The notes: a model not told the origin generated them from the sequence alone. A stretch of 64,000 nucleotides of DNA from an uncultured Bacteroidota bacterium (GCA_963775245.1 CAVZID010000037.1:3175-67174); one strand, 5' to 3'. Shown: positions 11-63,304, numbered from the stretch's first letter. Program-made: numbers and translations.

Positions 11-2145
11 ATGCAGCCAAAAGAATTATTAAAAAAGTATAATGACCCTAAAAACTTTTTCAACCGCGACTTAAGCTGGATTGAATTCAACCGGCGCGTG
101 CTTGAAGAAGCTTTAGATGCCGACCAGCCGTTGCTGGAAAAGGTAAAGTTCATTTCAATCTTTCATTCCAACTTGGATGAATTTTACATGATCCGAATTT
201 CCGGTTTGAAGGAACAAATAGCAGCAAGTGTGTTGGAACCTTCAATTGACGGACTTACACCAATCGAGCAGCTTCAGAAAATTGAAAAATGTGTTCAGTC
301 TATGCTGAAAACTGTAATGGATTTTTGGACAAATGAAGTTGTCCCGGAATTAAAAGTAAACAATATTGATATTGCAGAGTACCATGAACTTTCCGAAAAT
401 GAAAAAAATATTTTAACCGAATATTTTAAAAAGAAATTTACCCGGTTCTAACTCCGCTTGCTTTCGATCCGGGAAGGCCATTTCCGTATATATCAAATTT
501 AAGCTTAAGCCTGGCTATCCTTATAAAAAAACCTAATGGTGAAAATCATTTCGCTAGGGTAAAAGTTCCAAGCATTCTTCCAAGGCTTATGCAAATTGAT
601 AATATTATTAATCCAAATAAAAAAACACAAACTAATGGACAATTCAGTGCAAAGTTTGTTTGGCTGGGAGATATCATAAAAGATAATCTTTCACTTTTAT
701 TTCCAGGTTTGGAAGTAGTACAGGCACACCGTTTTAGAATTACGCGCGACACTGATATTGAATTACAGGAAGATGAAGCAGATGACCTTTTAAGTGTAAT
801 TGAAGAAAATATTCGTCAGCGCAGGTTTGGCAGCGTTGTTAGACTTGAAGTGGCCAGCAAAATGCCTGATTTCATGCTCGATACTTTAATGGAAAACTTA
901 TTAATAAAAAGTGAAGATGTGCATATAATTGACGGCCAATTAGGTTTAAGCGATATTATGACTTTGTATGACCTTCCGCTTCATCAATTAAAAGCAAAAC
1001 CATATTACCCGGTAATTCCAAAATTCTTCGAAGAGGATGAAGATATTTTTACAACTATCAGGCAAAAAGATATTTTACTTCATCATCCTTATCACTCATT
1101 TACACCTGTAATTGATTTAATAAAGCAGGCGGCAAAAGATCCCGATGTACTTGCAATAAAACAAACACTTTACCGCGTGGGGCTGAATTCACCAATAGTA
1201 AAATATTTAATTGAAGCTGCCGAAAGAGGAAAGCAGGTTGCAGTACTTGTTGAACTTAAAGCACGTTTTGATGAAGAGAATAATATCTTTTGGGCTCGCG
1301 AGCTTGAAAAAGTTGGTGTACATGTTGTTTATGGTTTGGTTGGATTAAAGACTCATGCTAAAATGACTTTAATAGTACGCAAAGAATTTGACGGAGTGAA
1401 AAGATATGTTCATTTATCAACCGGCAATTACAATGCTACTACTGCAAAGCTTTATACCGATTTAGGTTATTTTACTTGCGACAATGATATATGCACTGAC
1501 GTTGCAGATATTTTTAATTACCTTACCGGTTATTCAAAGCAAACAGAATTTAAAAAATTATTTGTATCGCCAATTAATATGCGTACAAGAATGATTGATT
1601 TGATTCTTAGAGAAATAGAAAATAAAAACAACGGCGGTGATGCAAAAATTATTTGGAAGCTCAATTCACTTGTTGATCCGGCAGTTATCAGCGCTTTATA
1701 TGAAGCATCTAACAATGGGGTTCATATTGAATTGATAGTAAGAGGAATCTGCTGCCTGATTCCAGGAGTCGAAGGGCTAAGTGAAAATATTAAAGTTATT
1801 AGTATTGTGGGTAGATATCTTGAGCACAGCCGGTTATTTTATTTTTACAACAACGGCGGCGAAGAAATGTATTTAAGCAGCGCAGACATGATGCAAAGGA
1901 ACCTGGATAGAAGAGTAGAAATAGCTTTCCCGGTTGAAGACAAAAAAATTAAAGATGAACTTTTAAAATCTTTAATTAAAATCTCACTTAAGGATAATAT
2001 TAAAGGAAGAATTTTAAATAGCAATATGACTTATTCTAAAATTGAAGATGAGAATAACCAAAAGAAGATTGATTCACAGGAATGGCTTATGAGCCAGGCT
2101 ATAAAAAAATCAGGCAATTATTCAAAGACTAAAGTATCACGTTAA
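11..2145 (+). pseudogene. ppk: polyphosphate kinase 1 (PPK1). The frame is broken once: the N-terminal 146 aa are in frame 2 (11-451) and the rest is in frame 1 (open from ~430 to 2145).
   Basis: Both ORFs read as PPK1: the N-terminus has FNRDLSWIEFNRRVLEEA, and the C-terminal part has tandem PLD-like domains with LKTHAKM and GRYLEHSR. Reading frame 1 from position 430 gives KEIYPVLTPLAFDPGRPFPYISNLSL, the conserved segment missing between the two ORFs. The shift maps to the A5 run at 428-432. Confidence 0.85.
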
Positions 2146-20013: not shown

Positions 20014-21504
20014 TTATTCGCCATGGCAATCTGTACATAAAGAAGTTTTCCAGCTATCACCAATATCCACTGGATGATCGAATTCCAATCCTTTCATAGA
20101 AATTTCTGCTTTTTTATTTTCAGACTGCTGAGATGCAATAATATGACAGGTATTACAATCTTTTGTTAATACTTTCCCGCTAGCACTTACATGTTTACCA
20201 TCGTGACATCTAAAGCAGCCGGGATAGTACATGTGTCCAATGTTATTCGGAAATTTCTTCCAACTAACATGCATTTCAGGGAAATAATTTCTGCGATAGA
20301 TTTCGTCAACTGTCTTTATGCTTTTTTCAATGGAACTGGATTGGCTGGAAGCAATTTTAGGATACCTATTCTTATAGAAATCGTTTATATAAATTTTAAT
20401 GCTGTCAAATGCTATCTCTTTTGTACTATAACTTTTTTCAAGAGCATCAACAGCAACACTTTTAATATAGGGTAAAGCAGTATCAATCAAGTCTGAAGAC
20501 ATCATATGATCAACAGAACTATAAGGTGGATGATAAATATGTGTTGGCCTATTATGGCAATCTATACAATCCATAACCCTAACTTCACCATTAGTCACAG
20601 TATCATTCTTGAATGGGAATTCAGTACTTTTATAAACTGTAACCTTGCCATCTCTAGATTCAGCTTTTACCCAGGGTATTGTTTGCCTTGATGAATCCGA
20701 AGCTATGTAGGTAATTTTATTTGCAATATTCATATGCCAGTGAATACCTGAGGTAATCCCCGTTTCCTCATTGCCTCCACCAATTTTTAACAGCATTGTA
20801 TTAGTAGATTTTGTATTCTGTTCATCAGAGAGAAAATACGAATTTTTAATTTCTTTTTGTGAATAGAAAAATTCAGGCCAGTGGCATTGTTCACAAGTTT
20901 CTCTTGCCGGCCTCAAATTACTTATTGGTGTGGGAATCGGTTTAGAATATTTATTAAATATTACAGAATAAACTTGATACGCACCGGATAATTTTGAACG
21001 CACATACCATCCAGCGCCAGATCCTATGTGACATTGCACGCATCCAACACGTGCATGTGGAGAGACCTTATAAGCAGTATATTCGGGAGTCATTACCTTA
21101 TGACATAAGGTTCCACAAAATTGATCTGAATCTGTAAATTCGTAAGCTTTATAGCTTCCAAACGCACTAAAAAGTAAAAGTAAAATTGTACCTACAAAAA
21201 AAACAGTAAACGCTTTCCGTTGTTTTGGATCATTAAAATTAAATACAGGGAACTTATACGCAATATCTTTTCCTGATTTTAATCTTCTTCCATGCCGAAT
21301 TGCTCCAAATGCTATTAGTAAAAGGCCTATAATTAGAAACCCTGGAAGTACTACGAATGCAATGATTCCCATATAGGGTTTTTGTTCAGTGCTTAAAGCT
21401 TCTAAAAGAATTAAAAAAAGTATTAAGCCAAAGCTTATAAGAGCTATTGCAACACCAGCAAAAGTTATAGGGTTATAGACCGATTCAGGAAATTTTCTTT
21501 TCAT
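20014..21504 (-). CDS. membrane-anchored heptahaem c-type cytochrome (ImcH-like / NapC-NirT-related architecture)
   Basis: It has three N-terminal hydrophobic helices, followed by six CXXCH motifs (CVQCH, CEQCH, CIDCH, CFRCH, CNTCH, CTDCH) and one CX3CH (CGTLCH). Confidence 0.8.
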   Translation of the reverse strand: MKRKFPESVYNPITFAGVAIALISFGLILFLILLEALSTEQKPYMGIIAFVVLPGFLIIGLLLIAFGAIRHGRRLKSGKDIAYKFPVFNFNDPKQRKAFTVFFVGTILLLLFSAFGSYKAYEFTDSDQFCGTLCHKVMTPEYTAYKVSPHARVGCVQCHIGSGAGWYVRSKLSGAYQVYSVIFNKYSKPIPTPISNLRPARETCEQCHWPEFFYSQKEIKNSYFLSDEQNTKSTNTMLLKIGGGNEETGITSGIHWHMNIANKITYIASDSSRQTIPWVKAESRDGKVTVYKSTEFPFKNDTVTNGEVRVMDCIDCHNRPTHIYHPPYSSVDHMMSSDLIDTALPYIKSVAVDALEKSYSTKEIAFDSIKIYINDFYKNRYPKIASSQSSSIEKSIKTVDEIYRRNYFPEMHVSWKKFPNNIGHMYYPGCFRCHDGKHVSASGKVLTKDCNTCHIIASQQSENKKAEISMKGLEFDHPVDIGDSWKTSLCTDCHGE

Positions 21505-21539
21505 GCTATACTTTCTTTTAAAAAAACGAAGAGAATTTT

Positions 21540-22424
21540 CTATCTATAAGCAAAAATCATTGCATAAATTATCCAAATAATAATACTAAATCCAATGCTC
21601 AATGCAGTCCAGCCAAAAAACTTTATTGTTCTGATTACAATGGGAGGATAAGGTTCAACCAAATAATTTTCTAGCTCGCCTTTTTCAACAAGTTCTTTAT
21701 ATTCATCTGGCCTATCATCCTTAAATTCTTCAATTGAAACTCTGCCTGAAAAAATCACAATGTCCATAGGAAATTTTTCGGGGCGAAGGTGAGTATTAAA
21801 AAAATGTATTGTAAAAATAAAACCAGTTGCAAGAAGGGCTTCATCACTATGAATTATTGTTGCAACATTAATTACCCAGCCAGGTAAAAAATTAGTTAGT
21901 AATTCCGGGAACCAAAGTGTTAACCCTGTTGAACCAATTACAACCATCCCCCAAAATACAGCGAAGTAGTCAAACTTTTCCCAATAAGTCCATCTGCCAT
22001 ATTGTGGCCTTTCACCTTTGCCAATAAACCATTTCATCGAATCCCTAAAATCATTCCAATCTTTTTTATTAAACATCATTGAATCTTTATTAAAGATAAA
22101 TTTCAGCAACGAAAGTTTTTCTTTCTTTTTGATTTTTAAGATGTTAACAATGTGTGTTATAAAAACACTAATCATAATTACAGCAGCAAATCGGTGAATA
22201 TAACCTGCAGATTCAAAACCACCTAATAGGTGAGAAAGAATAACTGCCCAGCCGGTATATGAAAATTTCAAAGTCATTCCAGTCAAGGCTAAGGTCATGA
22301 AGCTAACGATCATAAGTATGTGGAGAACACGATTTAATCTTGTAAACCTTTGAAACTGCAGTTGAGTTTTTTTAAGATATTCAGTTTTAGGAATATGATG
22401 TTCAGTTGTCTTCACCAGGTTCAT
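21540..22424 (-). CDS. integral-membrane dihaem cytochrome b-type subunit
   Basis: It has four or five TM helices, with His pairs 13-14 residues apart on two helices (HRFAAVIMISVFITH and HSDEALLATGFIFTIH). It is a paralogue of the C-terminal domain of the 24487-26691 protein. Its start overlaps the upstream gene by 23 nt. Confidence 0.7.
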   Translation of the reverse strand: MNLVKTTEHHIPKTEYLKKTQLQFQRFTRLNRVLHILMIVSFMTLALTGMTLKFSYTGWAVILSHLLGGFESAGYIHRFAAVIMISVFITHIVNILKIKKKEKLSLLKFIFNKDSMMFNKKDWNDFRDSMKWFIGKGERPQYGRWTYWEKFDYFAVFWGMVVIGSTGLTLWFPELLTNFLPGWVINVATIIHSDEALLATGFIFTIHFFNTHLRPEKFPMDIVIFSGRVSIEEFKDDRPDEYKELVEKGELENYLVEPYPPIVIRTIKFFGWTALSIGFSIIIWIIYAMIFAYR

Positions 22425-24453
22425 TAGTATTCTCTTTTAAATTTTCAGCATTCTTATTTTTTAATTTACGACGCCACTGTATTGATCTTGGCAGCCATAG
22501 TAGTGTGTGGATTCCAGCCAATACAAATGTACCAATAAGTAATCCAGTCATTCCCCAAAATGTCCAGAATAGCCAGGGATATTTCTCTGGGTCATGATGC
22601 GTTGCATGAGTAAAATATCCTGCAAACTGTCTATTTGCTCCTTCATGGCATTTCTTACATGTTTGAACAATATTTTGATGGCTTAGATGAGATTCGGGAT
22701 TATCAACTTTTAAGATATCATGTGCACCATGACAATCAAAACATTTTGCAGTTTTTGAATATCCTAATTGTGAAACTTTACCATGGTAAGTATCAAAATA
22801 TGTTTTAGCTATCTTCTCATGACATTTACCACAAGTATTCATTATTTGCATTCTGAAACCAGCTAAATCAGTTCTTTCGATTGTATGTGCAGTATGACAA
22901 GTATTACAGACAGGTAAAGGTTTATCTGTTTTTGTAACAAGCGAAGAATGTACACTCTTTTCGAATTGGGATTCAATTCCAAAATGGCATTTGCCGCAAG
23001 TTTGACTAACATTTTTTGGGTTAATACTTGATCTGGGATCATTATGTGGTAGTTCATGATGAGCAGTATGACAATCAGTACAAGCCGCAGTAACAGTAAG
23101 CCCGCTTTTTAATAATCCTCTACCGTGAATACTCTCATTATAATTATTTAGTATATTACGTTCAGTTCCTTTATAACGTTCTGCAGCAGGTTCTCCATTT
23201 CGATGACATCTCCCGCAGAGATTTGGAATGTTAGTATGAAACGTCGGTGAATTAGAATTATTTTTTGATAATACATGATGAGAACCATGGCATTCTACAC
23301 AAGTTGGGGCGTTAGGATCTTGTTTTGCAAATAACTGCCCATGAGTACTTTCTTTATATTGATCTCCAACTTCCGAATGACAAATCGAGCAATCTACTTT
23401 AGATGTTATTCCGGTACATGGGCGTAACATAGCCGGATTCACTGTATTATGGCATTGACTACACGCAATCTTTGTATGCACAGAATTTTGTAACGCAACA
23501 GCATCAACAAACATTGAACGTCCGTCTTTAGATTTTAAATCTTGCCTGCCATGACAATTTAAACAGTCCTGGTTAGCAATACTTGCTTCATATAAAACTT
23601 GTTTTATTTTATGAGGCGGATGACAATCAATGCAAACAGGTAAAACATGCGGCTTTTCTTCCCATAATTTACCTTTAATAATTTTACGGTGTACTGTTTC
23701 TATTTCCTGATGGCATTGTGTACAAGTATGTGAAATGTTATTCCTGTTAATTGTAGATTCAGGATCTGAAGGAGGAAGTATTTTATGCGGTGAATGACAC
23801 GATGCACATGTTGCAGCAACCGAGAGCCCTTTTTGTAATAGCCCTACACCATGCATACTTTCGGAGTAATTTTCAAAAATATGATCTTTAGGAATATGCC
23901 TTTGAGTCTGAACCTTTGTACCTTCTTTATGGCAAGAACCGCACACAAAAGGTATCTTAATGGGAGAAACTGCTGATTGAGGATTCTTTACAGGAATTAT
24001 ATCATGCGAACCATGGCAATTCTGACAAGTTGGTGCTAGTGGATCACCTTTAGCTTTTGCTTTACCATGAATACCTTCTGAATATAATGTTTGTTCATCA
24101 TCATGGCATGTTGCGCATTGTGCGGGCTCAACATCAGTTTTATGGGGAAAATCTGTACCTGCAAGATCAACATGACAGTCAATACATTGATTTCCTTCAT
24201 GTACCGAGGCTTTTAATTTATTTACATCTACAAAAACGGAAAATGTCTTGCCATTTTTTGTTCCTGTTAATGTGTTATCGCCATGACACATTAAGCAATC
24301 GTCATTCTCTTGTGCTAGTGCATTAACAGAAAGTATGATGAAAAAAGGTAAAACAAAAAAGATAATTTTAAATAGTTGATTTGAGAAATTTTTAAAATTC
24401 CCCTTTTTAGTTATTAACATATTATTATAACTATTGTATAATATCGTTTCCAA
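22402..24453 (-). CDS. 19-haem c-type cytochrome with a single C-terminal TM anchor
   Basis: I counted 19 CXXCH motifs. It has a signal/anchor sequence, five copies of the doubled-CXXCH unit (for example CQNCHGSHDIIPVKNPQS...CGSCH), and the C-terminal hydrophobic helix LFWTFWGMTGLLIGTFVLAGIHTLLW. Confidence 0.9.
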   Translation of the reverse strand: METILYNSYNNMLITKKGNFKNFSNQLFKIIFFVLPFFIILSVNALAQENDDCLMCHGDNTLTGTKNGKTFSVFVDVNKLKASVHEGNQCIDCHVDLAGTDFPHKTDVEPAQCATCHDDEQTLYSEGIHGKAKAKGDPLAPTCQNCHGSHDIIPVKNPQSAVSPIKIPFVCGSCHKEGTKVQTQRHIPKDHIFENYSESMHGVGLLQKGLSVAATCASCHSPHKILPPSDPESTINRNNISHTCTQCHQEIETVHRKIIKGKLWEEKPHVLPVCIDCHPPHKIKQVLYEASIANQDCLNCHGRQDLKSKDGRSMFVDAVALQNSVHTKIACSQCHNTVNPAMLRPCTGITSKVDCSICHSEVGDQYKESTHGQLFAKQDPNAPTCVECHGSHHVLSKNNSNSPTFHTNIPNLCGRCHRNGEPAAERYKGTERNILNNYNESIHGRGLLKSGLTVTAACTDCHTAHHELPHNDPRSSINPKNVSQTCGKCHFGIESQFEKSVHSSLVTKTDKPLPVCNTCHTAHTIERTDLAGFRMQIMNTCGKCHEKIAKTYFDTYHGKVSQLGYSKTAKCFDCHGAHDILKVDNPESHLSHQNIVQTCKKCHEGANRQFAGYFTHATHHDPEKYPWLFWTFWGMTGLLIGTFVLAGIHTLLWLPRSIQWRRKLKNKNAENLKENTNEPGEDN

Positions 24454-24486
24454 AATTTTTTAATATCTACTTAAATATATTTAACA

Positions 24487-26691
24487 TTATTTATCATCGA
24501 GTTTATCGCTCTCGGTTTCTACTCTTGATTCTTTAATTTTCTTAAGCTCTAACGGATGCTCTTCTTCCATTTCTTCTTCCGACAATTTACCGTTGAACCA
24601 GGCAGTGTTCATTGGGTAAACATCAGGATTAAAAATTATAAAGTAAAAATGCCAAACAACAATAGCTAAAAAAGCAAGCCAGGCTTCATAAAAATGAATT
24701 GTGTTCGCAATATCCCAGCCAAGCTTTGTAAAGATTCCAATAAACGTATTATCAAACCACATTATAACGCCGGTTACAGACATAACAATTGTTCCCCAAA
24801 CCAAAGCCCAATATTCAGACTTTTCAACATAACTAAATCTATCAAGTTTAGGCTTTTGTTTAGATATCCCAAGGTTGAAAGAAGCTACACCAATGGCATC
24901 AGTTAAATCTTTATACTTTGGCAATAAGTCTTTAAATAATTGGCGTCCTCTTTTTGTAAAAATTAAATATCCGATATGATAAACACTTACAGAAACCATA
25001 ATCACAGCTGCAATCCTATGAAGTATGCTTCTTATTTCAAAAGTATATTCGCTCAAGTCCCTAATATGCTGCACCCACCATGTATTTGGGAACCGCAACA
25101 TAAATCCGGTTATCACTAAAGTAATAAAACTGGCCGCGAGCAGGATATGCTGCACTCTTTCATTAGCTGTCATCCTTAGATACAAACCATGCCCGTGTAC
25201 TTCAGGCCTTAACATTCCGCTTTGTCTTAATTTTTTTATCTTTGCCTTTTTAATGAAATCAAACAAGTTATGCAAGAACATAAATCCAATGACAAGGATA
25301 ATTAAAATGATGTACATTGAAGAGATCCAATAAAGTATTGGCTCAGATTTTTGTGCTACAGTAACATGAATTTTACCTACAGCAAAGTTTTGATTTGCTC
25401 CCGGATGACATTTACCACAAGTTTTAGCAAGGTTCTTCTTATTTATTGTTGAAAGAGGATCACTTGCAGGTAAAATATTATGAACCCCATGACAGCTTGC
25501 ACAATTGGCTACAATGGTAGAACCGCCTTCAAGAGCAAGTCCGTGATAACTGTTCATATATGTTTTAAATCTATCCGGTGCAAGTCCGTATTTCTTTGTT
25601 AACTTTACTGAGCTATGGCATGGAGAACAAACCTGTGTTGATACATTTTGAAATGCCACAGGAGATTTAGGATTTGAGGGTTGTAAAATATTATGTTCAC
25701 CATGACAGTCAGTACATACAGGTGCGTCTAAATTTCCTTTAGCAACTTCTTTTCCGTGTATACTTTTTTCGTATGTATTTTTAATATCTGTGTGGCATTG
25801 TCCGCATGTATTAGGAACATTAGTTTTATATACTGTAGATTTTGGATTAGAACCTGGCAATATCTCATGAGCACTATGACAATTTATACAGGTAGCTACT
25901 TTACCATTTCCCTTTTGAAGTGCTGATCCGTGCACACTATGTTCGTAAGCAGAAATAAATCCCGCAGATGGGGCAGTTCTCCCTCTAACGTCCGGATTAT
26001 TAAGATGACATGATAAACACAATTTTTCTTGTGCTTGTTTTAATTTAGTTATATCCTCTTTACCGGATACATCTGCAACTGAATATTTATGACAGGTAAG
26101 ACAATATGGGGCACCCGCAATTTTGTTTTTAAATCCTTGATAATGAAGTGATTGTGTGTATTGCCCTACTTCTTTGCTATGACATTTTCCACATGAATTT
26201 ACTAGATTATTTTTACCCCATTTTGAATCCGGATTCTTAGGAGAAATTATATCATGAGTTCCATGACAGTTCCTGCATGACATATCAGGGGAACCATTTA
26301 TTCCATTAGCTTTTAATAACTGTGGATGAAAGCTATGTTTTATTGGTGCGTCTCTGTGACAAGTAAGACAATTTATCGGAGTTATATTTTCTTTATGAGG
26401 AATATTGTTGGGATCAAAACCTACGTGGCAAGATACACAATTTAATTTTCCGTGAACTGAATGAGTGAATACTTTCGAACTAACATATAACGAAACTTCT
26501 TTACCGTTTCTTTCAGTAGTTAAAGTATTATCGTCATGACACATCAGACAGTCGTCATTTGTTTGAGGGTAGATGTTTTGAGAGCTGACAATCAGGCAGA
26601 TTATAAGACTAACTATAAAGTACACTAACTTTTGCAGTAGATTAGTTTCCACTTTCATTTTGTGCGATGGTCGAGACTGTCCGATGTGCAT
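24487..26691 (-). CDS. 13-haem c-type cytochrome fused to a dihaem cytochrome b membrane domain (CbcL-like architecture)
   Basis: I counted 13 CXXCH motifs and four doubled-CXXCH units. A TM helix follows, and then a C-terminal ~230-aa domain homologous to the 21540-22424 protein. The true start may be the internal MKVETN at 26658. Confidence 0.9.
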   Translation of the reverse strand: MHIGQSRPSHKMKVETNLLQKLVYFIVSLIICLIVSSQNIYPQTNDDCLMCHDDNTLTTERNGKEVSLYVSSKVFTHSVHGKLNCVSCHVGFDPNNIPHKENITPINCLTCHRDAPIKHSFHPQLLKANGINGSPDMSCRNCHGTHDIISPKNPDSKWGKNNLVNSCGKCHSKEVGQYTQSLHYQGFKNKIAGAPYCLTCHKYSVADVSGKEDITKLKQAQEKLCLSCHLNNPDVRGRTAPSAGFISAYEHSVHGSALQKGNGKVATCINCHSAHEILPGSNPKSTVYKTNVPNTCGQCHTDIKNTYEKSIHGKEVAKGNLDAPVCTDCHGEHNILQPSNPKSPVAFQNVSTQVCSPCHSSVKLTKKYGLAPDRFKTYMNSYHGLALEGGSTIVANCASCHGVHNILPASDPLSTINKKNLAKTCGKCHPGANQNFAVGKIHVTVAQKSEPILYWISSMYIILIILVIGFMFLHNLFDFIKKAKIKKLRQSGMLRPEVHGHGLYLRMTANERVQHILLAASFITLVITGFMLRFPNTWWVQHIRDLSEYTFEIRSILHRIAAVIMVSVSVYHIGYLIFTKRGRQLFKDLLPKYKDLTDAIGVASFNLGISKQKPKLDRFSYVEKSEYWALVWGTIVMSVTGVIMWFDNTFIGIFTKLGWDIANTIHFYEAWLAFLAIVVWHFYFIIFNPDVYPMNTAWFNGKLSEEEMEEEHPLELKKIKESRVETESDKLDDK

Positions 26692-26803
26692 GATGATAAA
26701 AACTTTTCAATTATTTAAAAGAGCGATTATTATTCTAAATTTTTTCATTTAATTCAATTTCTATTTACATTTTATTTAGATTTAGTTATTCAATCCACAA
26801 TAA

Positions 26804-26965
26804 TTAATATTCCAACTGAGAAACAGGCACTTTGTTAGATACCTTGGTTATTTTTGTACTCTGCTTATTTGAATCCTTGGTGTGACTGAAATCCATAGAA
26901 TATGCAAAACCATATAATGCAACAATCATAATAACAACAAATAAATAAATTAAAAGTCCTTTCAT
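26804..26965 (-). CDS. candidate 53-aa single-TM mini-protein upstream of the cytochrome operon
   Basis: My own translation is MKGLLIYLFVVIMIVALYGFAYSMDFSHTKDSNKQSTKITKVSNKVPVSQLEY. It is on the same strand as the operon and has only a weak AGG upstream. It falls below the ORF-track length cut-off. Confidence 0.3.
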   Translation of the reverse strand: MKGLLIYLFVVIMIVALYGFAYSMDFSHTKDSNKQSTKITKVSNKVPVSQLEY

Positions 26966-27256
26966 GTCATTACCTTTCTAAATAAAATTTCAAACTTGCA
27001 TTATTAATTCAGCGTTGGCTGATTGGTATGCATGGGATTTTCAAAGAATATGCCGTAATTATTTTTACATTATTTTAAGAATTTAAGGCAGGTGTTGAAT
27101 TATTTCCCAGATAAAAGAATTATTGCAAAATCATCTTTCCATTGGTGAGAATACTTTGCAATGAAATGCAATAATGTTTGAAATATTGATTAGAATACAA
27201 TTTTTCTAAAATAACTTTTAGAATATTTGAGATAATAGAAAGTTGAAAATTGTTGC

Positions 27257-41665: not shown

Positions 41666-43710
41666 ATGTTCAAAGGAACCATATTACTCATGTTTATTTT
41701 GAGTACTTCATTTGTTTTTTTTTCGTGTTCACAAAAAAATTCGGAGGTGAAAGATAAAGGATTGGATTTAACAAACATTGACTCTACTGTGAGTCCCGCA
41801 AAAGATTTTTATGATTATGCTGTTGGTAACTGGGTAAAAAATAATAAGATACCAGATGAGTATAGCCGCTGGGGCAGCTTTGAACTTTTAGCTGAACAAA
41901 ATTACAAAGTACTTCATAATATTTTAGATTCTGCTGCAAATAACAAAGAGGCTAAACCAAGCAGTAATATTTATAAAGTTGGAATGTTTTATTCCTTAGG
42001 AATGGATACAGTAAAAATTGAAAAACAAGGTTATTCAACTATAAAAGATGAACTTGATCTGGTTGATGCAGTTAAAAATAAAGACGACTTATATAAGGAA
42101 CTAGCTCATATTCATTTAAATGTTGGTGCTCCATTTTTTAATTTCGGCTCAACTCCAGATGAGAAAAATAGTGATATGACTATAACCGGTTTAGGCCAGG
42201 GCGGATTAGGTTTGCCTGATAAAGATTACTATTTGAAAAATGATGCTCACTCAAAAGAAGTGAGGCTAAAATACCATCAACACATAACCAATATGTTTAA
42301 GCTGATTGGTTATACAGAAACTGATGCTAAAAAGTCAGCAAACGAAATTATGAAAATTGAAACAGAACTAGCTAAAGCTTCAAGATCAAGAGTTGAATTA
42401 AGAAATCCGGAAAAGAATTATAACAAAATGAAACTTTCCGGTTTGGAAAAAGTAGCGCCTCAATTTGACTGGCCTGTATTTTTTAAACTGGTTAACCTCT
42501 CTAATCCGGGAGATATTGATGTAGGCCAACCTGAATTTTTTACTGCGGTTGGAAAAGTTGTCAGTAAAACTCCAATTGAAGATTTAAAGACATATTTGAA
42601 ATGGAATGTCTTAAGAGGACTTGCTCCGTATTTAAGCAGTAATTTTGTAAATGAAAGATTTGATTTTTATAGTAAATACTTAAATGGAGCTAAGGCCATG
42701 GAGCCGCGATGGAAAATGGTTATGAAATCAGTTAATGGTTCTTTAGGTGAAGCGCTTGGCGAGTTATATGTAAAAGAAACATTTCCCCCAGAAGCAAAAG
42801 CAAGAGCATTGAAGATTGTAAAGAGTCTTGTTGATGCAATGAAAGAAAGAATTGAAAACGTTGATTGGATGAGTGACACAACTAAAAAGAAAGCTCTTGA
42901 GAAGCTCTCTAAGCTTACAGTAAAAATCGGATATCCGGATAAATGGAAAGACTATTCAAAGTTGGATATTAAAAATGATTCTTATGTTGAAAATGGAATT
43001 AGAGCATCACATTTTGAATTTGAGCGCGACCTTGCTAAAATCGGAAAACCGGTTGACAAAACTGAATGGCATATGACTCCGCAAACTGTAAATGCTTATT
43101 ACAACCCTGTAAATAATGAAATTGTATTTCCTGCCGCTATCCTGCAGCCTCCATTTCTTCAATCAAAATGCAGACGATGCTGTTAATTACGGAGCAATGG
43201 GCGCTGTAATCGGACACGAAATTACTCATGGGTTTGATGACCAAGGCAGACACTATGATGCTAATGGAAATCTAACTGATTGGTGGACAAAACAGGATGC
43301 AGAAAAATTCAGTAAACGAGCAGATGGCTTGGTAAAACAATTTGACAGCTATAATCCGGTAGATACAATGCATATAAACGGCAGATTAACCTTAGGTGAA
43401 AACATTGCTGATCTTGGCGGACTCACAGTTTCATTTACTGCATTCAAAAAAACTGATGAGTATAAAGAGAATAAAAAGATAGATGGATTTACTCCGGCTC
43501 AAAGATTTTTCTTATCCTGGGCCCAAGTTTGGAGAAATATTATTCGTGATAAAGATCTTAATGTTGAGATTAAAAACTGATCCACACTCACCAAATAAAG
43601 AAAGAGTAAACGGGCCATTCAGTAATTTGGCTCCATTCTGGAAGGCATTCAATGTAAAAGAAGGAGACCCAATGAGAAGGCCGGATAGTGAAGTTGTAAA
43701 GATCTGGTAA
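41666..43710 (+). pseudogene. pepO: M13-family zinc metallopeptidase (PepO/neprilysin-like) interrupted by two frameshifts
   Basis: Three consecutive ORFs in frames 2, 0 and 1 together read as one M13 peptidase: a lipoprotein leader, NAYYNPVNNEIVFPAAILQPPF | FNQNADDAVNYGAMGAVIGHEITHGFDDQG ... GENIADLGG ... WAQVWRN | TDPHSPNKERVNGPFSNLAPFWKAF...KIW. Confidence 0.9.
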
Positions 43711-43972: not shown

Positions 43973-45277
43973 ATGGACAATCTTCTCGCTGCCCGTTCTA
44001 CAATGGCTTTATCTCTGGGCTTTCACATTATCTTCGCCTGCATTGGAATGACCATGCCTTTCTTGATGGTAGTTTCACATTGGCTTTATTTAAAACGAAA
44101 AGATGAAATTTATTTGAAGCTTACAAAAACCTGGTCGAAAGGAGTTGCCATATTTTTTGCAATTGGGGCCGTGTCTGGTACTGCACTTTCCTTCGAACTT
44201 GGAATTTTATGGCCTGGATTTATGAAATATGCCGGAGCAATTATCGGAATGCCTTTTAGCTGGGAAGGAACTGCATTCTTTGTTGAAGCAATTTGTATTG
44301 GATTATTTCTTTATGGATGGAATAAATTAAATCCGTATGTCCATTGGTTCGCCGGATTAATGGTTGGAATTTCAGGAGTGCTTTCAGGAATATTTGTAGT
44401 TGCAGCAAATGCCTGGATGAATGCCCCAGCCGGATTCGATTGGGTAAATGGAAAAGCTATTAACATTGATCCCTTTGCCGCAATGTTTAATCCTGCTTGG
44501 GTTAGTCAAACTTCGCACATGATAATTGCAGCATTCGAAGCTACTGCGTTTGCTGTTGCCGGGCTTCATGCATTTTTACTTTTGAAAGGAAAGAATACTT
44601 CGATTCATAAAATGGCTATGATAATTGCTTTGTCAATCGGAAGTATTGCGGCTATTATTCAGCCTCTAAGCGGCGACCATTCGGCAAAGGATGTTGCCAA
44701 AAGACAGCCAATTAAACTTGCAGCCATGGAAGGATTATTTCATACAGAAAGCGGCGCAGGTTTAACCATCGGCGGTATTCCAAATGAAAAGGAACGAACT
44801 ACAAAATTCGGTTTAACAATTCCAAAAGGATTAAGCTTTTTAGCTTATGGAGATTTTAATGCCGAGGTAAAAGGATTAAATGATTTCCCGGAAGAAAATT
44901 GGCCGCCGGTTGCACCGACACATATTGCTTTTCAAATTATGGTTGGATGCGGTACCCTTTTAGCTTTAGCAGGAGTTTTATTCTGGGTGATTCGCTACAA
45001 ATGGAAAGATGTTTTGTTGAATAAAAAGTTTTTAACTTTCATTGCCCTAATCGGACCATTAGGATTTGTTGCTGTTGAAGCCGGTTGGATTGTAACCGAA
45101 GTTGGAAGGCAGCCCTGGATAATTTATAATATTATGAGAACGGCTCAAGCTGTTTCACCCGTGCCCGGACAAATTTTTCATTTTACACTTTTTGCAATTT
45201 CATATTTGGTTTTATGCTTTGCTGCTTATTGGTTAATGAAAAGACAAATAATAAAATTGGACGAAGAAGAGTTTTGA
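43973..45277 (+). CDS. cydA: cytochrome bd-type quinol oxidase subunit I (short Q-loop form)
   Basis: The N-terminus LAARSTMALSLGFHIIFACIGM, the GVAIFFAIGAVSGT and EAGWIVTEVGRQPW motifs are canonical CydA. Confidence 0.9.
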   Translation: MDNLLAARSTMALSLGFHIIFACIGMTMPFLMVVSHWLYLKRKDEIYLKLTKTWSKGVAIFFAIGAVSGTALSFELGILWPGFMKYAGAIIGMPFSWEGTAFFVEAICIGLFLYGWNKLNPYVHWFAGLMVGISGVLSGIFVVAANAWMNAPAGFDWVNGKAINIDPFAAMFNPAWVSQTSHMIIAAFEATAFAVAGLHAFLLLKGKNTSIHKMAMIIALSIGSIAAIIQPLSGDHSAKDVAKRQPIKLAAMEGLFHTESGAGLTIGGIPNEKERTTKFGLTIPKGLSFLAYGDFNAEVKGLNDFPEENWPPVAPTHIAFQIMVGCGTLLALAGVLFWVIRYKWKDVLLNKKFLTFIALIGPLGFVAVEAGWIVTEVGRQPWIIYNIMRTAQAVSPVPGQIFHFTLFAISYLVLCFAAYWLMKRQIIKLDEEEF

Positions 45278-45311
45278 AATTAGTAACTGATGTTACGCTA
45301 AACAATTAGTT

Positions 45312-45349
45312 ATAAACCCAGTTTCATTAAGAAACTGAGTTTATTTAGG
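45312..45349. repeat. second copy of the AAACCCAGTTTC...GAAACTG(A/G)GTTT hairpin, located inside the cydA-cydB spacer
   Basis: ATAAACCCAGTTTCATTAAGAAACTGAGTTTATTTAGG is about 90% identical to 14145-14182. It looks like a terminator, with a T-rich tail. Confidence 0.6.
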
Positions 45350-45403
45350 CTCTTGCGTAAGGTAACTTAATACGATAATAGCTTCGAGTTTTTTGGAAAA
45401 CTA

Positions 45404-45432
45404 TTGACATAATTATTACTGAGTAATACAAT
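45404..45432 (+). promoter_or_regulatory. sigma70-consensus-like promoter candidate in front of cydB
   Basis: TTGACA (45404-45409), an exact 17-nt spacer and TACAAT (45427-45432) lie 69 nt upstream of the cydB ATG. Confidence 0.4.
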
Positions 45433-45500
45433 ATGATTAAACTTCGAAGTTCTGAATTTAAACAATTTGACTTTTTAATTTTGAATTTTGACTTAACACC

Positions 45501-46508
45501 ATGCTTTACGTAGTAATTATATTTTTGTTAGTTTCTGTTTATCTTTATTGCTTATTAGGCGGTGCAGACTTTGGTGCCGGAATAATTGAACTAACATCCC
45601 GAGGTGAAAATAAAATACGAATCCGAAAAATAGTAAGTGATTCGATGGCGCCAATATGGGAAGCAAACCACATGTGGTTAATAATCACTGTAGTTATATT
45701 GTTTAATGCTTTCCCTCCAATTTACAGCCAGATTTCTATTTCACTTTATATTCCTTTAATACTTTTATTGTTTGGAATTATTTTAAGAGGAACAGCTTTC
45801 ACCTTTCGTCATTACGATGCAATAAAAGATTCATCGCAGGAAGTCTATTCAAGATTTTTTCAAATCTCCAGCTTGCTCGTCCCGTTCTTCTTCGGATTGT
45901 TAATAGGAGCCTTAGTTTCTGGAAGAATATATGTAAACCCTCATGGATTTTTTGAAGGATACATTTTACCCTGGCTAAATCCATTTTCAATTTCTATTGG
46001 AATTTTTATTGTATCCTTGTTTGCATTTATTGCTGCTGTATTTTTAATTGGCGATTCAACCAATGAACAGCTCAGAAAAATATTTATTCAAAAAGCCAAG
46101 GCAGCAAACCTTCTAACAGTAATTAGCGGTGGACTTGTATTTTTATCTTCTGCTGTTTTTTCCAATAATGGTTTTGCAAAGAATTTTTTCAGTCATCCAA
46201 TAAGTATAGGCTTCATTGTCATCGCTACAATTATACTTCCGTTTTTATGGAAGGTTCTGGAAAAAGGATTCACCTGGCGCACGCGAATACTTGCCGGGGC
46301 AGAGTTGCTTTTTATTCTTGCAGCTTTTTATGCGGTTTACTTCCCTACCATAGTTATTATCAGTGATGCTGATAATTTAACTTTGCTTAACAGTGCAGCA
46401 AATGAATTGACTTTATCTTACCTCGGCTGGGCTTTGATTCTCGGCTCACTAATAATTTTTCCTGCTTTATTTTATTTATTGAAAGTTTTTAAGCTTGGTA
46501 AAAATTAA
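45501..46508 (+). CDS. cydB: cytochrome bd-type quinol oxidase subunit II
   Basis: This 335-aa polytopic protein has the N-terminal LLGGADFGAGI motif and sits next to cydA. Confidence 0.85.
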   Translation: MLYVVIIFLLVSVYLYCLLGGADFGAGIIELTSRGENKIRIRKIVSDSMAPIWEANHMWLIITVVILFNAFPPIYSQISISLYIPLILLLFGIILRGTAFTFRHYDAIKDSSQEVYSRFFQISSLLVPFFFGLLIGALVSGRIYVNPHGFFEGYILPWLNPFSISIGIFIVSLFAFIAAVFLIGDSTNEQLRKIFIQKAKAANLLTVISGGLVFLSSAVFSNNGFAKNFFSHPISIGFIVIATIILPFLWKVLEKGFTWRTRILAGAELLFILAAFYAVYFPTIVIISDADNLTLLNSAANELTLSYLGWALILGSLIIFPALFYLLKVFKLGKN

Positions 46509-54347: not shown

Positions 54348-54420
54348 TGGATTTAAAGTATGAACCATATGCTCTTTTCTAGAATTATTATTATTTTTAT
54401 TGAAAGTAATTATATATAAC

Positions 54421-55581: not shown

Positions 55582-55583
55582 TA

Positions 55584-56054
55584 ATGATATATGTTTTTGA
55601 TACCAACTGTTTCATTGTCCTGGGTCATTATTTTCCTGAACGTTTCCCAACTTTTTGGACTAATATCAAGGAATGCATTAGTGATGGCAAAATCATATCT
55701 ACTAGAGAAGTCTTTAATGAACTAATTGATAAAGGGAACAAAGAGTTTTTAGATAATTGGCTCAAAGAAAATAAAAATATTTTTTTAACACCAACTTCAG
55801 AAGAACTTACCTTTGTGAAAGAAATTTTCTCCGTACAACATTTTCAACAACTAGTGAAAGAAAAACAAAGATTAAAAGGCACGCCTGTTGCGGATCCATT
55901 TGTAATTGCTTTGGCTAAAGTAAAAAAGGCGTGCGTTATAACTGAAGAATCAATGAAAAAAAATGCAGCCCGAATTCCAAATGTATGTGAACATTTCAAA
56001 ATAGATTGTACAAATCTTGAAGGTTTTATGAAAAGGGAGAACTGGACATTTTAA
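55584..56054 (+). CDS. DUF4411-like PIN-domain-like protein (putative nuclease/toxin partner)
   Basis: MIYVFDTNCFI at the N-terminus carries the PIN-like acidic residue, and ...VFNEL...ADPFVIALA fits the family. The gene starts 2 nt after the ImmA/IrrE gene. The family was assigned from memory of the motif. Confidence 0.65.
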   Translation: MIYVFDTNCFIVLGHYFPERFPTFWTNIKECISDGKIISTREVFNELIDKGNKEFLDNWLKENKNIFLTPTSEELTFVKEIFSVQHFQQLVKEKQRLKGTPVADPFVIALAKVKKACVITEESMKKNAARIPNVCEHFKIDCTNLEGFMKRENWTF

Positions 56055-63302: not shown

Positions 63303-63304
63303 TT

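What the first reader, a model, noticed from the sequence alone, without database searches (positions are those of the whole stretch)
20014..26965. One operon with 38 CXXCH + 1 CX3CH haem-c motifs and two dihaem-b modules, combining CbcL-like and ImcH-like quinol-oxidase architectures
Four co-directional, abutting or overlapping minus-strand genes run from 26691 to 20014, preceded by a 53-codon TM mini-ORF. (i) A 734-aa protein has 13 CXXCH motifs, a TM helix and a C-terminal membrane domain with His pairs 13-14 residues apart on two helices, the dihaem cytochrome b pattern. (ii) A 683-aa protein has 19 CXXCH motifs and one C-terminal TM anchor. (iii) A 294-aa protein is a stand-alone paralogue of the b domain. 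(iv) A 496-aa protein has three N-terminal TM helices and seven haem motifs. The unit CxxCH(G/S)xH(I/L)x4-5(N/D)PxS...CxxCH recurs 5 times in (ii) and 4 times in (i); this is the doubled-CXXCH module of Geobacter/Shewanella-type cytochromes. Architecture (i) matches the published description of Geobacter CbcL, a multihaem c domain fused to a HydC/FdnI-type b cytochrome. Architecture (iv) matches the description of ImcH, with up to 3 TM helices, a NapC/NirT-like region and 7 haems. In Geobacter those two are encoded at separate loci and serve different redox-potential windows. Here both architectures and a 19-haem protein sit in one transcription unit. The window contains no catalytic reductase subunit and no outer-membrane porin-cytochrome gene. 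My inference is an inner-membrane quinol-to-periplasm electron-export machine of unusual composition, whose terminal acceptor cannot be told from the sequence.
Basis: partly seen in the sequence, partly recalled or inferred. Interest (0 to 1): 0.8.

Follow-up and report, generated by a model that had tools for sequence, protein, structure and literature searches.

The report
CbcL-type plus ImcH cytochrome operon
An Ignavibacteria-like bacterium encodes in one operon three membrane cytochrome modules (two CbcL-like, one ImcH-like) that most likely move respiratory electrons from the membrane quinone pool out to the periplasm. The parts belong to known families, and their tight linkage, presented as unusual, turns out to be common outside Geobacter.

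Summary
Four tightly packed minus-strand genes (20014-26691) carry 38 CXXCH plus 1 CX3CH motifs and two FdnI-type dihaem-b modules, and a real small TM-peptide gene precedes them.

D is a bona fide ImcH-family member. A is a CbcL-type bc-cytochrome with 13 haems and five TM helices. The split is genuine, not a frameshift.

The composition is not unusual. Among 75 informative imcH-like loci (71 species genomes, three relatives and the window), 48 have a CbcL-type gene immediately upstream and 58 have one within 7 kb. In Acidobacteriota the figure is 23 of 24. Twenty loci have two b-modules.

Published tables already contain adjacent cbcL/imcH locus tags, although no searchable paper states the linkage.

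No reductase flanks any locus. Relatives continue into Rieske/cytochrome b, further multihaem cytochromes and a putative porin.

The most likely function is a set of co-expressed, parallel menaquinol oxidases for periplasmic or extracellular electron export. The locus is a modest variant of known systems and of moderate interest.

The parts
26966..27160 (-). Conserved non-coding stretch (promoter/operator or 5' leader) immediately upstream of the mini-ORF
   Evidence: It is 88% identical over 197 nt to relative L001, and nearly 100% identical in the proximal ~100 nt. The next 100 nt upstream are only about 50% identical. Only two sequences are available. There is no Rfam match and no sigma-54 consensus. 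Its role is inferred.
26804..26965 (-). Mini-ORF: small single-TM peptide gene (53 codons here, 25-44 in relatives)
   Evidence: Differences from L001 fall mainly at third codon positions. A profile built from the 25-residue N-terminal segments of four copies (which contain the 23-residue TM core) also finds a fifth copy in L002 at E = 1.5e-9. The copies (window, L001, L002, L003, L016) always lie just 5' of the first cytochrome gene. Function unknown; possibly a small subunit.
24487..26691 (-). A: CbcL-type bc-cytochrome with signal/anchor helix, 13 CXXCH, then five TM helices holding an FdnI-like dihaem-b domain (His515, 558, 572, 666, 681)
   Evidence: PF01292 58 bits; PF09699 55 bits. The five His are invariant or nearly so (80-82 of 82 homologues). 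A profile aligns to FdnI 1KQF_C at E = 2.7e-12. A is a full-length paralogue of B + C.
22402..24453 (-). B: 19-haem periplasmic cytochrome c with a cleavable-looking signal peptide (..ALA-QE) and one C-terminal TM anchor; the haem subunit of a split CbcL-type protein
   Evidence: Its motif positions match the 19-haem CbcL homologues OGU58019.1 and OGV21847.1 of Zhong & Shi Table S2. Fused orthologues occur in L015, L032, L065 and L080. It shares 29% identity over 524 aa with A's haem domain (E = 1.5e-60).
21540..22424 (-). C: stand-alone FdnI-like dihaem cytochrome b subunit (four FdnI-type TM helices plus one C-terminal TM; His35, 77, 91, 192, 207); partner of B
   Evidence: PF01292 scores 37 bits. 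It is 33% identical to A's b domain (E = 5e-31). All 120 best homologues are stand-alone proteins of 257-313 aa. The His residues are conserved. FdnI matches by profile and by Foldseek on a low-confidence model (TM-score 0.70, probability 1.00). The B/C overlap is identical in an independent assembly.
20014..21504 (-). D: ImcH-family inner-membrane heptahaem cytochrome with three TM helices, CX3CH at residue 130 and six CXXCH
   Evidence: PF03264 42 bits. Motif positions are 130/155/204/313/430/450/490, against 132/156/205/311/428/448/486 in GSU3259. It is 44% identical over 486 aa (E = 3e-172) to a Syntrophus protein that has the GSU3259 motif spacing. All seven motifs plus M138, H150, H322, H424 and H477 are invariant in 36 diverse relatives.

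Best explanation
The locus is an operon for the inner-membrane entry point of a multihaem-cytochrome electron-export chain. It encodes three parallel menaquinol:cytochrome-c oxidoreductase modules.

1. **D, an ImcH orthologue.** It oxidises menaquinol at a NrfH-like site at haem 1 on the periplasmic face. Protons are released to the periplasm and the electrons run along seven c haems.
2. **A, a CbcL-type bc-cytochrome.** Its FdnI-like dihaem-b domain connects a quinone site on the cytoplasmic face, across the membrane, to a chain of 13 c haems in the periplasm.
3. **B + C, the same design split into two subunits.** B is a 19-haem subunit anchored by one helix. C is the b subunit. The pair probably assembles as Geobacter CbcBA does.

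The long haem chains (13 and 19) probably reach far into the periplasm. They hand electrons to further multihaem cytochromes and an outer-membrane conduit encoded elsewhere in this genome; in relatives those genes lie directly downstream.

Because the modules are co-transcribed, the choice among them would be made by the proteins' own redox properties, as in Geobacter. ImcH would serve higher-potential acceptors. The b-type modules, assisted by the membrane potential, would serve lower-potential ones.

**Shown:** family membership, ligand conservation, the split, the synteny, and the absence of reductase neighbours.
**Inferred:** the direction of electron flow, the potential windows, the assembly of B with C, and the extracellular acceptor.
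For: **Anatomy and domain hits.**

**ImcH fingerprint and similarity.**
- Motif positions and spacing match the family.
- D aligns with NrfH over TM3 and haems 1-3. The invariant M138 aligns with NrfH's haem-1 Met, and K171 with the NrfH quinol-site Lys.
- D125, K171 and Y186 correspond to the conserved E127, K173 and Y188 of Geobacter ImcH.

**b-type domains.** The four FdnI haem-ligand His are conserved in A and C across 82 homologues from several phyla.

**B + C as one unit.** The evidence is B's motif match to published 19-haem CbcL homologues, the fused orthologues, the stand-alone C homologues, the relatives' loci and the junction identical in an independent assembly.

**Operon structure.** Gaps are 33, -23 and 35 nt, with no credible internal terminator. 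Gene order is conserved across phyla.

**Outward conduit in relatives.** Relatives with the same four genes continue co-directionally into the following:
- Rieske and cytochrome b
- 11-, 4-, 12/14- and 5-8-haem cytochromes
- a signal-peptide protein with weak outer-membrane barrel hits
- a CcmF-like haem lyase

**Literature.**
- ImcH and CbcL are menaquinol oxidases for extracellular electron transfer.
- Both are constitutively expressed, and CbcL is gated by potential.
- ImcH is electroneutral with a periplasmic-side quinol site.
Against: - There is no experimental datum for this organism or for any Ignavibacteria homologue.
- The window has no periplasmic or outer-membrane partner. D is followed by a convergent aldehyde dehydrogenase gene.
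- FdnI-family b subunits classically work in the opposite direction, reducing quinone.
- CbcL/MtoC homologues also occur in Fe(II) oxidisers (abstract of Zhong & Shi).
- The porin assignment in relatives rests only on sub-threshold hits.
- All NCBIfam hits are far below their cut-offs.
- A fifth invariant His in the b domain is unexplained.
Confidence: 0.6

Rival explanations
1. The modules act as the quinol dehydrogenase for one or more soluble-substrate periplasmic reductases encoded elsewhere (nitrite, sulfur compounds, arsenate, N-oxides). This is how NrfH, NapC, TorC and CymA serve their partners. Under this reading the operon is not part of an extracellular electron-transfer chain.
For: - D is a NapC/NirT/NrfH relative.
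- The window has no outer-membrane conduit.
- CymA-type proteins are promiscuous.
Against: - No reductase gene lies beside the cluster in the window or in the 83 related loci. The recurrent neighbours include multihaem cytochromes, Rieske/cytochrome b, a putative barrel protein, two-component regulators and, in Acidobacteriota, radical-SAM/SPASM and YwiC-like genes.
- Haem chains of 13 and 19 are more than a dedicated reductase anchor needs.
Confidence: 0.13
2. Electron flow is reversed or looped. The CbcL-type modules work in the FdnI direction: they take electrons from periplasmic or extracellular donors (Fe(II), reduced humics, a partner cell) and reduce menaquinone at the cytoplasmic face. 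ImcH then re-oxidises menaquinol at the periplasmic face. Together they form a proton-motive redox loop between two periplasmic redox couples, or an electron-uptake route.
For: - The b domains are FdnI-like over their whole length, and the region that aligns with FdnI's cytoplasmic-side quinone pocket (as I recall it) is conserved: Y147-x-E149-K150-x-x-Y153 in C.
- CbcL/MtoC/MtrH homologues occur in Fe(II) oxidisers.
- A quinone reductase and a quinol oxidase with sites on opposite membrane faces are conserved as neighbours in many phyla.
Against: - Geobacter genetics show that CbcL works as a quinol oxidase at low potential.
- ImcH homologues have been found only in reducers.
- No donor-side enzyme is encoded nearby.
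Confidence: 0.12
3. ImcH and the CbcL-type proteins form one obligate supercomplex with a Q-cycle-like mechanism. Quinol is oxidised at the ImcH site. One electron leaves through the c haems. The other returns through the FdnI-like b haems to a cytoplasmic-side quinone site.
For: - The two genes are near-universal immediate neighbours in Acidobacteriota (23 of 24) and common neighbours elsewhere.
- A small TM peptide gene sits upstream, as in other respiratory complexes.
- The b domain has a fifth invariant His and a cytochrome b6-like HR-x12-H helix.
Against: - Nothing shows physical contact between the proteins.
- In Geobacter the two proteins function independently in single mutants and are encoded far apart.
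- Many imcH loci have no CbcL-type neighbour, for example Bacteroidales, Draconibacterium, Syntrophus and two of three Calditrichota loci.
Confidence: 0.05
4. B and C are fragments of a single gene broken by a sequencing or assembly indel, or by a recent pseudogenising frameshift.
For: - C starts in the +1 frame inside B's last 23 nt, next to an A-run.
- Fused versions of 919-952 aa exist.
- Other genes in this window look frameshift-split, namely ppk and an M13 peptidase.
Against: - The junction is 100% identical (205 of 205 nt) in an independent assembly of a public sequencing run.
- Relatives keep separate genes with different junctions: an 8-nt ATGGATAA overlap in L001 and a 25-nt gap in L002.
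- All 120 closest C homologues are stand-alone proteins, from many assemblies.
- The split falls in the cytoplasmic loop, where it is topologically harmless.
Confidence: 0.01

Closest known systems
ImcH (GSU3259) of Geobacter sulfurreducens
   Same: - D has nearly the same length: 496 aa against 507 aa.
- It has three N-terminal TM helices.
- It has the atypical CX3CH next to TM3 and six CXXCH with almost identical spacing.
- It has a NapC/NirT-like region.
- The Lys and Tyr of the proposed quinol site are conserved.
   Different: - Identity to the Geobacter-clade protein tested is about 44%.
- D has Asp where Geobacter has Glu127.
- D is encoded directly downstream of CbcL-type genes, not at a separate locus.
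- Its function is untested.
CbcL (GSU0274) and the CbcL/MtrH/MtoC family (Zhong & Shi 2018)
   Same: - The design is the same: a periplasmic multihaem c domain, one linking TM helix, then an FdnI/HydC-type dihaem b domain.
- The spacing of the last four haems and the distance to the first TM match: 28/43/28/28 in CbcL against 29/42/28/~27 in A.
- B's 19 motif positions coincide with published family members OGU58019.1 and OGV21847.1.
   Different: - A has 13 haems rather than 9, and lacks the sixth (C-terminal) TM helix.
- B + C is split into two polypeptides and has 19 haems.
- There was no direct alignment to GSU0274.
CbcBA (Geobacter bc-type complex)
   Same: B + C has the same subunit plan: a multihaem c subunit with a single C-terminal TM helix, plus a separate dihaem-b membrane subunit (description).
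   Different: - B has 19 haems; CbcA has 7.
- C has five TM helices; CbcB has 4.
- B + C is orthologous to fused CbcL-type proteins.
- The sequence relationship to CbcBA was not tested.
FdnI, gamma subunit of E. coli formate dehydrogenase-N (PDB 1KQF chain C)
   Same: - A profile aligns over the full length (E = 2.7e-12).
- All four haem-ligand His (18, 57, 155, 169) are conserved.
- It is the only significant Foldseek match of the C model.
   Different: - There are no FdnG/FdnH partners.
- The scores are far below the NCBIfam cut-off (about 51-53 bits against 115.85).
- There is an extra invariant His and an extra C-terminal TM helix.
- The electron partner is a multihaem cytochrome.
NrfH / NapC / CymA quinol dehydrogenases
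   Same: - D residues 97-208 align with the NapC/NirT fold region.
- The haem-1 Met and the quinol-site Lys are conserved.
   Different: - D has three TM helices and seven haems, not one TM helix and four haems.
- No nrfA or nap genes are adjacent.
- The TIGR03153 score is 46 bits against a cut-off of 134.

Membership tests
ImcH | Three TM helices at the N-terminus | tested here: met
   Hydropathy gives helices at 9-42, 41-73 and 96-120. The AF2 model gives helices at 12-37, 43-76 and 93-124.
ImcH | Atypical CX3CH next to TM3 plus six CX2CH at the family's spacing, in a protein of about 495-519 aa (Zhong & Shi 2018) | tested here: met
   D is 496 aa, with CX3CH at 130 and CXXCH at 155, 204, 313, 430, 450 and 490. 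GSU3259 has 132, 156, 205, 311, 428, 448 and 486. All seven motifs are invariant in 36 diverse relatives.
ImcH | NapC/NirT/NrfH-like region covering TM3 and the first haems | tested here: met
   PF03264 scores 42 bits against a cut-off of 24.1, over residues 97-187. D aligns with NrfH 2J7A_C over residues 113-208, with the Met and Lys conserved.
ImcH | Full-length sequence similarity to Geobacter-clade ImcH | tested here: met
   D is 44% identical over 486 aa (E = 3e-172) to the Syntrophus sp. protein in L078. That protein's motif spacing equals GSU3259's, and the paper places the Syntrophus homologue in the Geobacter ImcH clade. A direct alignment to GSU3259 itself was not possible.
ImcH | Conserved quinol-site residues (E127, K173 and Y188 of GSU3259) | tested here: met
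   D has D125 (most relatives have Glu), K171 and Y186. The mapping uses motif offsets and family alignments, not a direct pairwise alignment.
ImcH | Required only for reduction of acceptors above about -0.1 V | not testable with these tools
   Needs genetics and electrochemistry.
CbcL/MtrH/MtoC | N-terminal periplasmic multihaem c domain (3-23 CX2CH) | tested here: met
   A has 13 and B has 19. Both have signal-like N-termini.
CbcL/MtrH/MtoC | HydC/FdnI-type dihaem b domain fused C-terminally in the same polypeptide | tested here: met
   Met for A: PF01292 at residues 507-689, 58 bits. For B + C the feature is NOT met, because the b domain is a separate gene (C). Fused orthologues exist.
CbcL/MtrH/MtoC | Conserved His ligands for the b haems | tested here: met
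   Five His are invariant or nearly so (80-82 of 82 sequences). Four of them align with FdnI H18, H57, H155 and H169.
CbcL/MtrH/MtoC | Six TM helices | tested here: not met
   A has five and lacks the C-terminal helix. B + C together have six (1 + 5). The family paper accepts a few homologues with four or five TM helices.
CbcL/MtrH/MtoC | Direct sequence similarity to GSU0274 | not tested
   No Geobacter sequence could be obtained. The proxies are the spacing of the last four haems and first TM, and the match between B's motif positions and published family members.
CbcBA | Separate multihaem c subunit with one C-terminal TM helix, plus a dihaem b subunit | tested here: met
   B + C have this architecture. 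Haem and TM numbers differ (19 against 7; 5 against 4). Homology to GSU0593/0594 was not tested.
Formate dehydrogenase-N gamma subunit (FdnI) | Score above the TIGR01583 cut-off, with adjacent FdnG/FdnH genes | tested here: not met
   The scores are 52.7 bits (A) and 50.6 bits (C) against a cut-off of 115.85. No molybdopterin or FeS subunit genes are in the window. The fold and ligands are shared.
NrfH (nitrite reductase quinol dehydrogenase) | About 150 aa, one TM helix, four haems, nrfA adjacent, TIGR03153 cut-off reached | tested here: not met
   D is 496 aa with three TM helices and seven haems. It scores 46.2 bits against 134.2. No nrfA is found in the window or in related loci.

The most novel reading that the evidence does not exclude
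The cross-phylum, immediate adjacency of a CbcL-type bc-cytochrome and ImcH may mean that the two are subunits of a single energy-conserving machine rather than alternative quinol oxidases. The CbcL-type protein has an FdnI-like domain with a quinone site on the cytoplasmic face. ImcH has a NrfH-like quinol site on the periplasmic face. Together they could form a redox loop or a Q-cycle analogue built from non-bc1 parts. The small TM peptide and the fifth invariant b-domain His would be parts of that machine. Geobacter's separated genes would then be the derived exception.
Probability: 0.07. Interest if true: 0.85.

Novelty: new variant of a known kind. Interest (0 to 1): 0.42.

Why it matters
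ImcH and CbcL are the textbook example of a bacterium choosing respiratory 'gears' according to the redox potential of an extracellular acceptor. They have been studied only in Geobacter, where they are encoded apart.

In the genomes surveyed, which are mostly Ignavibacteriota/Bacteroidota and Acidobacteriota with single loci from several other phyla, an imcH-like gene usually sits directly behind a CbcL-type gene. Often a second, split, 19-haem CbcL-type module is also present. This has three consequences:

1. It gives annotators a recognisable operon signature for the inner-membrane step of extracellular electron transfer in uncultured soil and sediment lineages.
2. It supports the idea that the choice between gears is made at the protein level, not by transcription.
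3. It raises a testable question: do the two proteins cooperate physically?

For this particular locus the pay-off is modest. It is one ordinary member of that widespread arrangement, and it lacks the downstream conduit genes that its relatives carry.

Tried and rejected
- **Frameshift or pseudogene origin of the B/C split.** Rejected.
- **Exact look-up of protein A on contigs.** Nothing on record.
- **PDB sequence searches for solved ImcH or CbcL.** There are none. Only NrfH (E = 3.6e-4) and an unnamed 278-aa cytochrome c (E = 6.5e-3) appeared.
- **AlphaFold2 model of D.** pLDDT was 64 and the haem regions were below 50. Foldseek gave no meaningful hit, so this was a dead end.
- **AlphaFold2 model of C.** It was also poor (pLDDT 62) and was used only as corroboration of FdnI.
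- **The single genome-contig scan.** I hoped it would return a Geobacter locus for direct alignment. The best-80 cap returned only closer relatives; the most Geobacter-like was a Syntrophus locus.
- **Sigma-54 promoter search.** Fewer matches than chance, and none upstream of the operon.
- **Sigma-70 and terminator scans.** At or below shuffle expectation, so uninformative.
- **Rfam and tRNA scans.** Nothing found.
- **The conserved upstream DNA element.** It could be found only in the closest relative.
It matches nothing; only a loosened reading works.
- **Porin assignment of the ~435-aa downstream protein of relatives.** Inconclusive: only sub-threshold outer-membrane barrel hits and no PDB match.
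- **Literature searches for an explicit description of a cbcL-imcH operon.** None found in the searchable library. Subscription-only papers could not be checked.
- **Third homologous-protein search.** Not spent, because the answer would not have changed the verdict.

Full report
**1. The observation**

ORF listing reproduces the four co-directional minus-strand genes and the mini-ORF at the stated coordinates.

| Gene | Coordinates | Length | Haem motifs |
|---|---|---|---|
| A | 24487-26691 | 734 aa | 13 CXXCH |
| B | 22402-24453 | 683 aa | 19 CXXCH |
| C | 21540-22424 | 294 aa | none |
| D | 20014-21504 | 496 aa | 6 CXXCH + CX3CH at residue 130 |

That is 38 + 1 motifs, as claimed. Shuffled sequences give at most 2 motifs. 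These are the only CXXCH-bearing ORFs in the 64 kb window. The gene junctions are 33 nt, a 23-nt overlap, and 35 nt.

Pfam places Ni_hydr_CYTB (prokaryotic cytochrome b561) in A residues 507-689 and in C. It places Paired_CXXCH_1 and c7/c3 repeats in A and B, and the NapC/NirT domain in D residues 97-187. All of these score above the gathering thresholds.

NCBIfam hits (FdnI, NrfH, DmsE-type decahaem) all fall far below their cut-offs. None of the proteins is therefore an equivalog of a named enzyme subunit.

**2. Context**

The flanks are unrelated genes:
- an aminotransferase upstream;
- a convergent aldehyde dehydrogenase and a LytS/LytTR two-component system downstream;
- MetRS, peptidyl-prolyl isomerases and a subtilase with a T9SS sorting domain further out;
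- a cytochrome bd oxidase about 17 kb away.

G+C content is about 33%. The closest named homologues come from Ignavibacteriaceae/Ignavibacteriota and 'Bacteroidota' MAGs. The window has no reductase, porin or other cytochrome c.

**3. D is an ImcH**

Zhong & Shi (2018, PMC6295460) define ImcH homologues by four features: three N-terminal TM helices, an atypical CX3CH next to the TM region, six CX2CH, and a length of 495-519 aa. D meets all four.

- Its motif positions (130/155/204/313/430/450/490) track those listed for GSU3259 (132/156/205/311/428/448/486) and for three Ignavibacteria homologues.
- An exhaustive search finds 785 50%-identity clusters at E <= 1e-30. Almost all of the best 150 representatives carry one CX3CH.
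- In an alignment of 36 diverse relatives, all seven haem motifs plus M138, H150, H322, H424 and H477 are invariant.
- D is 44% identical over 486 residues (E = 3e-172) to the Syntrophus protein in L078. That protein's motif spacing is identical to GSU3259's, and the paper places the Syntrophus homologue in the Geobacter ImcH clade.
- The NrfH alignment puts D's invariant Met138 on NrfH's haem-1 Met, and K171 on the NrfH quinol-site Lys. D125, K171 and Y186 correspond to the conserved E127, K173 and Y188 of Geobacter ImcH.

**4. A and B + C are two CbcL-type units**

A's membrane domain and C are paralogues (33% identity, E = 5e-31). A's haem domain and B are also paralogues (29% over 524 aa, E = 1.5e-60).

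B's 19 motif positions coincide with those of two Ignavibacteria proteins of 944-952 aa that Zhong & Shi list as CbcL homologues with six TM helices. Fused orthologues of 919-952 aa with 19 haems occur in L015, L032, L065 and L080. B plus C is therefore a split version of that protein.

The split is genuine:
- The closest relative (L001, with D 89% identical) has the same four genes, with a different 8-nt ATGGATAA overlap between B and C.
- L002 has a 25-nt gap between them.
- All 120 best homologues of C are stand-alone proteins of 257-313 aa.
- An independent assembly of a public sequencing run reproduces the window's junction 205 of 205 nt.

The break lies in the cytoplasmic loop between the linking helix and the FdnI-like domain. 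B keeps the anchor helix and C starts in the cytoplasm, as FdnI does. This gives B + C the subunit plan described for Geobacter CbcBA.

C retains the sixth (C-terminal) TM helix of CbcL, and A lacks it.

**5. The b-type haem sites**

Across 82 A-type and C-type membrane domains from several phyla, five His are invariant or nearly so (80-82 of 82). In C they are H35, H77, H91, H192 and H207; in A they are H515, H558, H572, H666 and H681.

A profile of 36 of these domains aligns end to end with E. coli FdnI (1KQF_C, E = 2.7e-12). The FdnI ligands H18, H57, H155 and H169 fall on C's H35, H77, H192 and H207.

A low-confidence AF2 model of C (pLDDT 62) has FdnI as its only significant Foldseek match (TM-score 0.70).

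The fifth His has no FdnI counterpart and is unexplained. It creates a cytochrome b6-like HR-x12-H helix.

**6. The arrangement is common**

I analysed them together with three relatives' loci and the window.

| Measure | Count |
|---|---|
| Loci with at least 2.3 kb upstream sequence | 75 |
| CbcL-type b-domain gene ending < 400 nt upstream of imcH, same strand | 48 |
| CbcL-type b-domain gene within 7 kb upstream | 58 |
| Two b modules present | 20 |
| An 18- or 19-haem protein present | 24 |

By taxon, immediate adjacency is seen in:
- 23 of 24 Acidobacteriota loci, usually with an 11-haem A-type protein;
- 10 of 15 Ignavibacteria loci;
- 5 of 12 loci labelled Bacteroidota;
- the single Zixibacteria, Dadabacteria and Binatia loci, and one of three Calditrichota loci.

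The full A-B-C-D set recurs in L001, L006, L008, L016, L035, L036, L039, L068 and L070. It appears in the order B-C-A-D in three Acidobacteriota genomes.

On a neighbour-joining tree of the ImcH-like proteins, A-type adjacency fills both the Ignavibacteria/Bacteroidota clade and the Acidobacteriota clade. The 19-haem module is patchy within both.

Loci without any CbcL-type neighbour include Bacteroidales, Draconibacterium, Syntrophus, Krumholzibacteriia, Gemmatimonadota and two of the three Calditrichota loci.

**7. What the literature holds**

Their tables nevertheless list consecutive or near-consecutive locus tags:
- Syntrophobacterales bacterium GWC2_56_13: CbcL A2X96_02390 and ImcH A2X96_02395;
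- Geobacteraceae bacterium GWB2_52_12: CbcL A2X80_11570 and ImcH A2X80_11560.

I found no paper in the searchable library that states the linkage.

In Geobacter both genes are constitutively expressed, and CbcL is switched off above about -0.1 V at the protein level. ImcH is electroneutral with a periplasmic-side quinol site. CbcL's FdnI-like motif implies a cytoplasmic-side site. Co-transcription therefore fits the existing model and does not challenge it.

**8. Where the electrons go**

Nothing in the window answers this. In relatives carrying the same four genes (L006, L008), and in many A-D loci, the cluster continues co-directionally. The genes that follow are:
- Rieske protein and cytochrome b;
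- an 11-haem cytochrome;
- a c554-like tetrahaem cytochrome;
- a signal-peptide protein of about 435 aa;
- a 12- or 14-haem cytochrome with faint MtrC/MtrF-like similarity;
- further cytochromes with 5-8 haems;
- a CcmF-like haem lyase.

The 435-aa family gives only sub-threshold hits, and almost all of them are to outer-membrane barrel families. It ends in an aromatic residue. This is suggestive of a porin-cytochrome conduit, not proof.

No nrfA, hao, ttr or molybdoenzyme gene recurs next to the cluster.

**9. Mini-ORF and leader**

The 53-codon ORF is real. Its substitutions against L001 are mostly synonymous third-position changes. A profile built on its TM core (four 25-residue seed segments) finds copies immediately upstream of the first cytochrome gene in five loci.

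The ~190 nt upstream of it are much better conserved than the neighbouring intergenic DNA. Only two sequences are available, so its role is open.

**10. Verdict**

The biological reading as a quinol-to-periplasm electron export module is the best supported one (confidence about 0.6).

The claim of an unusual composition does not hold. The locus is a typical representative of a widespread arrangement of imcH with cbcL-type genes, and that arrangement has received little attention in print. The window's copy even lacks the downstream conduit genes.

The remaining points of interest are:
- the cross-phylum synteny itself;
- the polymorphism between split and fused 19-haem modules;
- the fifth invariant His;
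- the small TM peptide.

The hypothesis that ImcH and CbcL-type proteins cooperate in one machine is not excluded, but it is unlikely (about 7%).

Noticed in passing
window 26966-27160 (minus strand): About 190 nt of non-coding DNA just 5' of the mini-ORF is 88% identical to relative L001, and nearly 100% identical in the proximal ~100 nt. The next 100 nt upstream are about 50% identical. It could be an operator/promoter or a structured leader. There is no Rfam hit.
   Followed up: partly
window 26804-26965; L001 4579-4713; L002 4618-4695; L003 7512-7595; L016 4751-4828: A family of small (25-53 aa) single-TM peptides, MK(G/N)..Y..F....AL(Y/F)G..(F/Y)S, always lies immediately upstream of the first cytochrome gene of the cluster. 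It may be a small subunit.
   Followed up: partly
A H572 / C H91 (window 24976-24978 and 22152-22154, minus strand): A fifth invariant His lies in the FdnI-like b domain, 14 residues after the haem-ligand His on the same helix. The pattern resembles cytochrome b6 helix B. FdnI has no counterpart. A-type proteins also have an invariant His712 (58 of 58) where C-type proteins have Arg.
   Followed up: partly
L006 11448-21482; L008 11412-21394; L005 2397-12244; L003 11511-16212: In many Ignavibacteriota/Bacteroidota relatives, imcH is followed co-directionally by a further block. The block holds Rieske, cytochrome b, an 11-haem cytochrome, a c554-like tetrahaem, a putative outer-membrane barrel protein, 12/14-haem and 5-8-haem cytochromes, and a CcmF-like lyase. 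The whole supercluster is about 17 kb and carries roughly 80 c-haem sites. The window lacks this block.
   Followed up: partly
L053, L061, L064 (Acidobacteriota); L043 11607-12881; L042 13063-13905; L044 7358-7750: In three Acidobacteriota loci (L053, L061, L064) the 19-haem + b module sits upstream of the A-type gene (order B-C-A-D). Recurrent neighbours in Acidobacteriota loci are a radical-SAM/SPASM protein, a YwiC-like membrane protein and a monohaem class-I cytochrome c.
   Followed up: no
window 11-451 and 589-2145: Polyphosphate kinase appears split into two ORFs. The N-terminal domain is separate from the middle and C-terminal domains. The cause could be a frameshift, a pseudogene or an assembly indel.
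   Followed up: no
window 41666-43186 and 43116-43580: An M13 peptidase is split into two overlapping ORFs, so a frameshift is likely. The class-V aminotransferase at 56810-57634 also looks truncated (profile positions 62-319 only).
   Followed up: no
window 43973-46508: cydAB (cytochrome bd quinol oxidase) lies about 17 kb from the operon. The organism therefore also has an O2-linked quinol oxidase.
   Followed up: no
window 54400-56054 and 62103-63736: Two defence- or toxin-antitoxin-like gene pairs. One is HTH + M78 (IrrE-like) peptidase with DUF4411. The other is an AAA_15/AbiEii-like ATPase with a small unannotated ORF.
   Followed up: no
proteins P0256 (734 aa), P0290 (771 aa), P0374 (1429 aa): In some ImcH-family representatives the ImcH unit forms the C-terminal part of a much longer protein (ImcH region at 227-721, 277-767 and 1005-1398). 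Others carry up to 24 CXXCH. These fusions were not examined.
   Followed up: no
L002 475-3274; L003 3885-6699: In some relatives a PAS histidine kinase and a sigma-54-type response regulator sit directly upstream of the cluster. In the window and in L001 they are absent, and no sigma-54 promoter consensus was found.
   Followed up: partly
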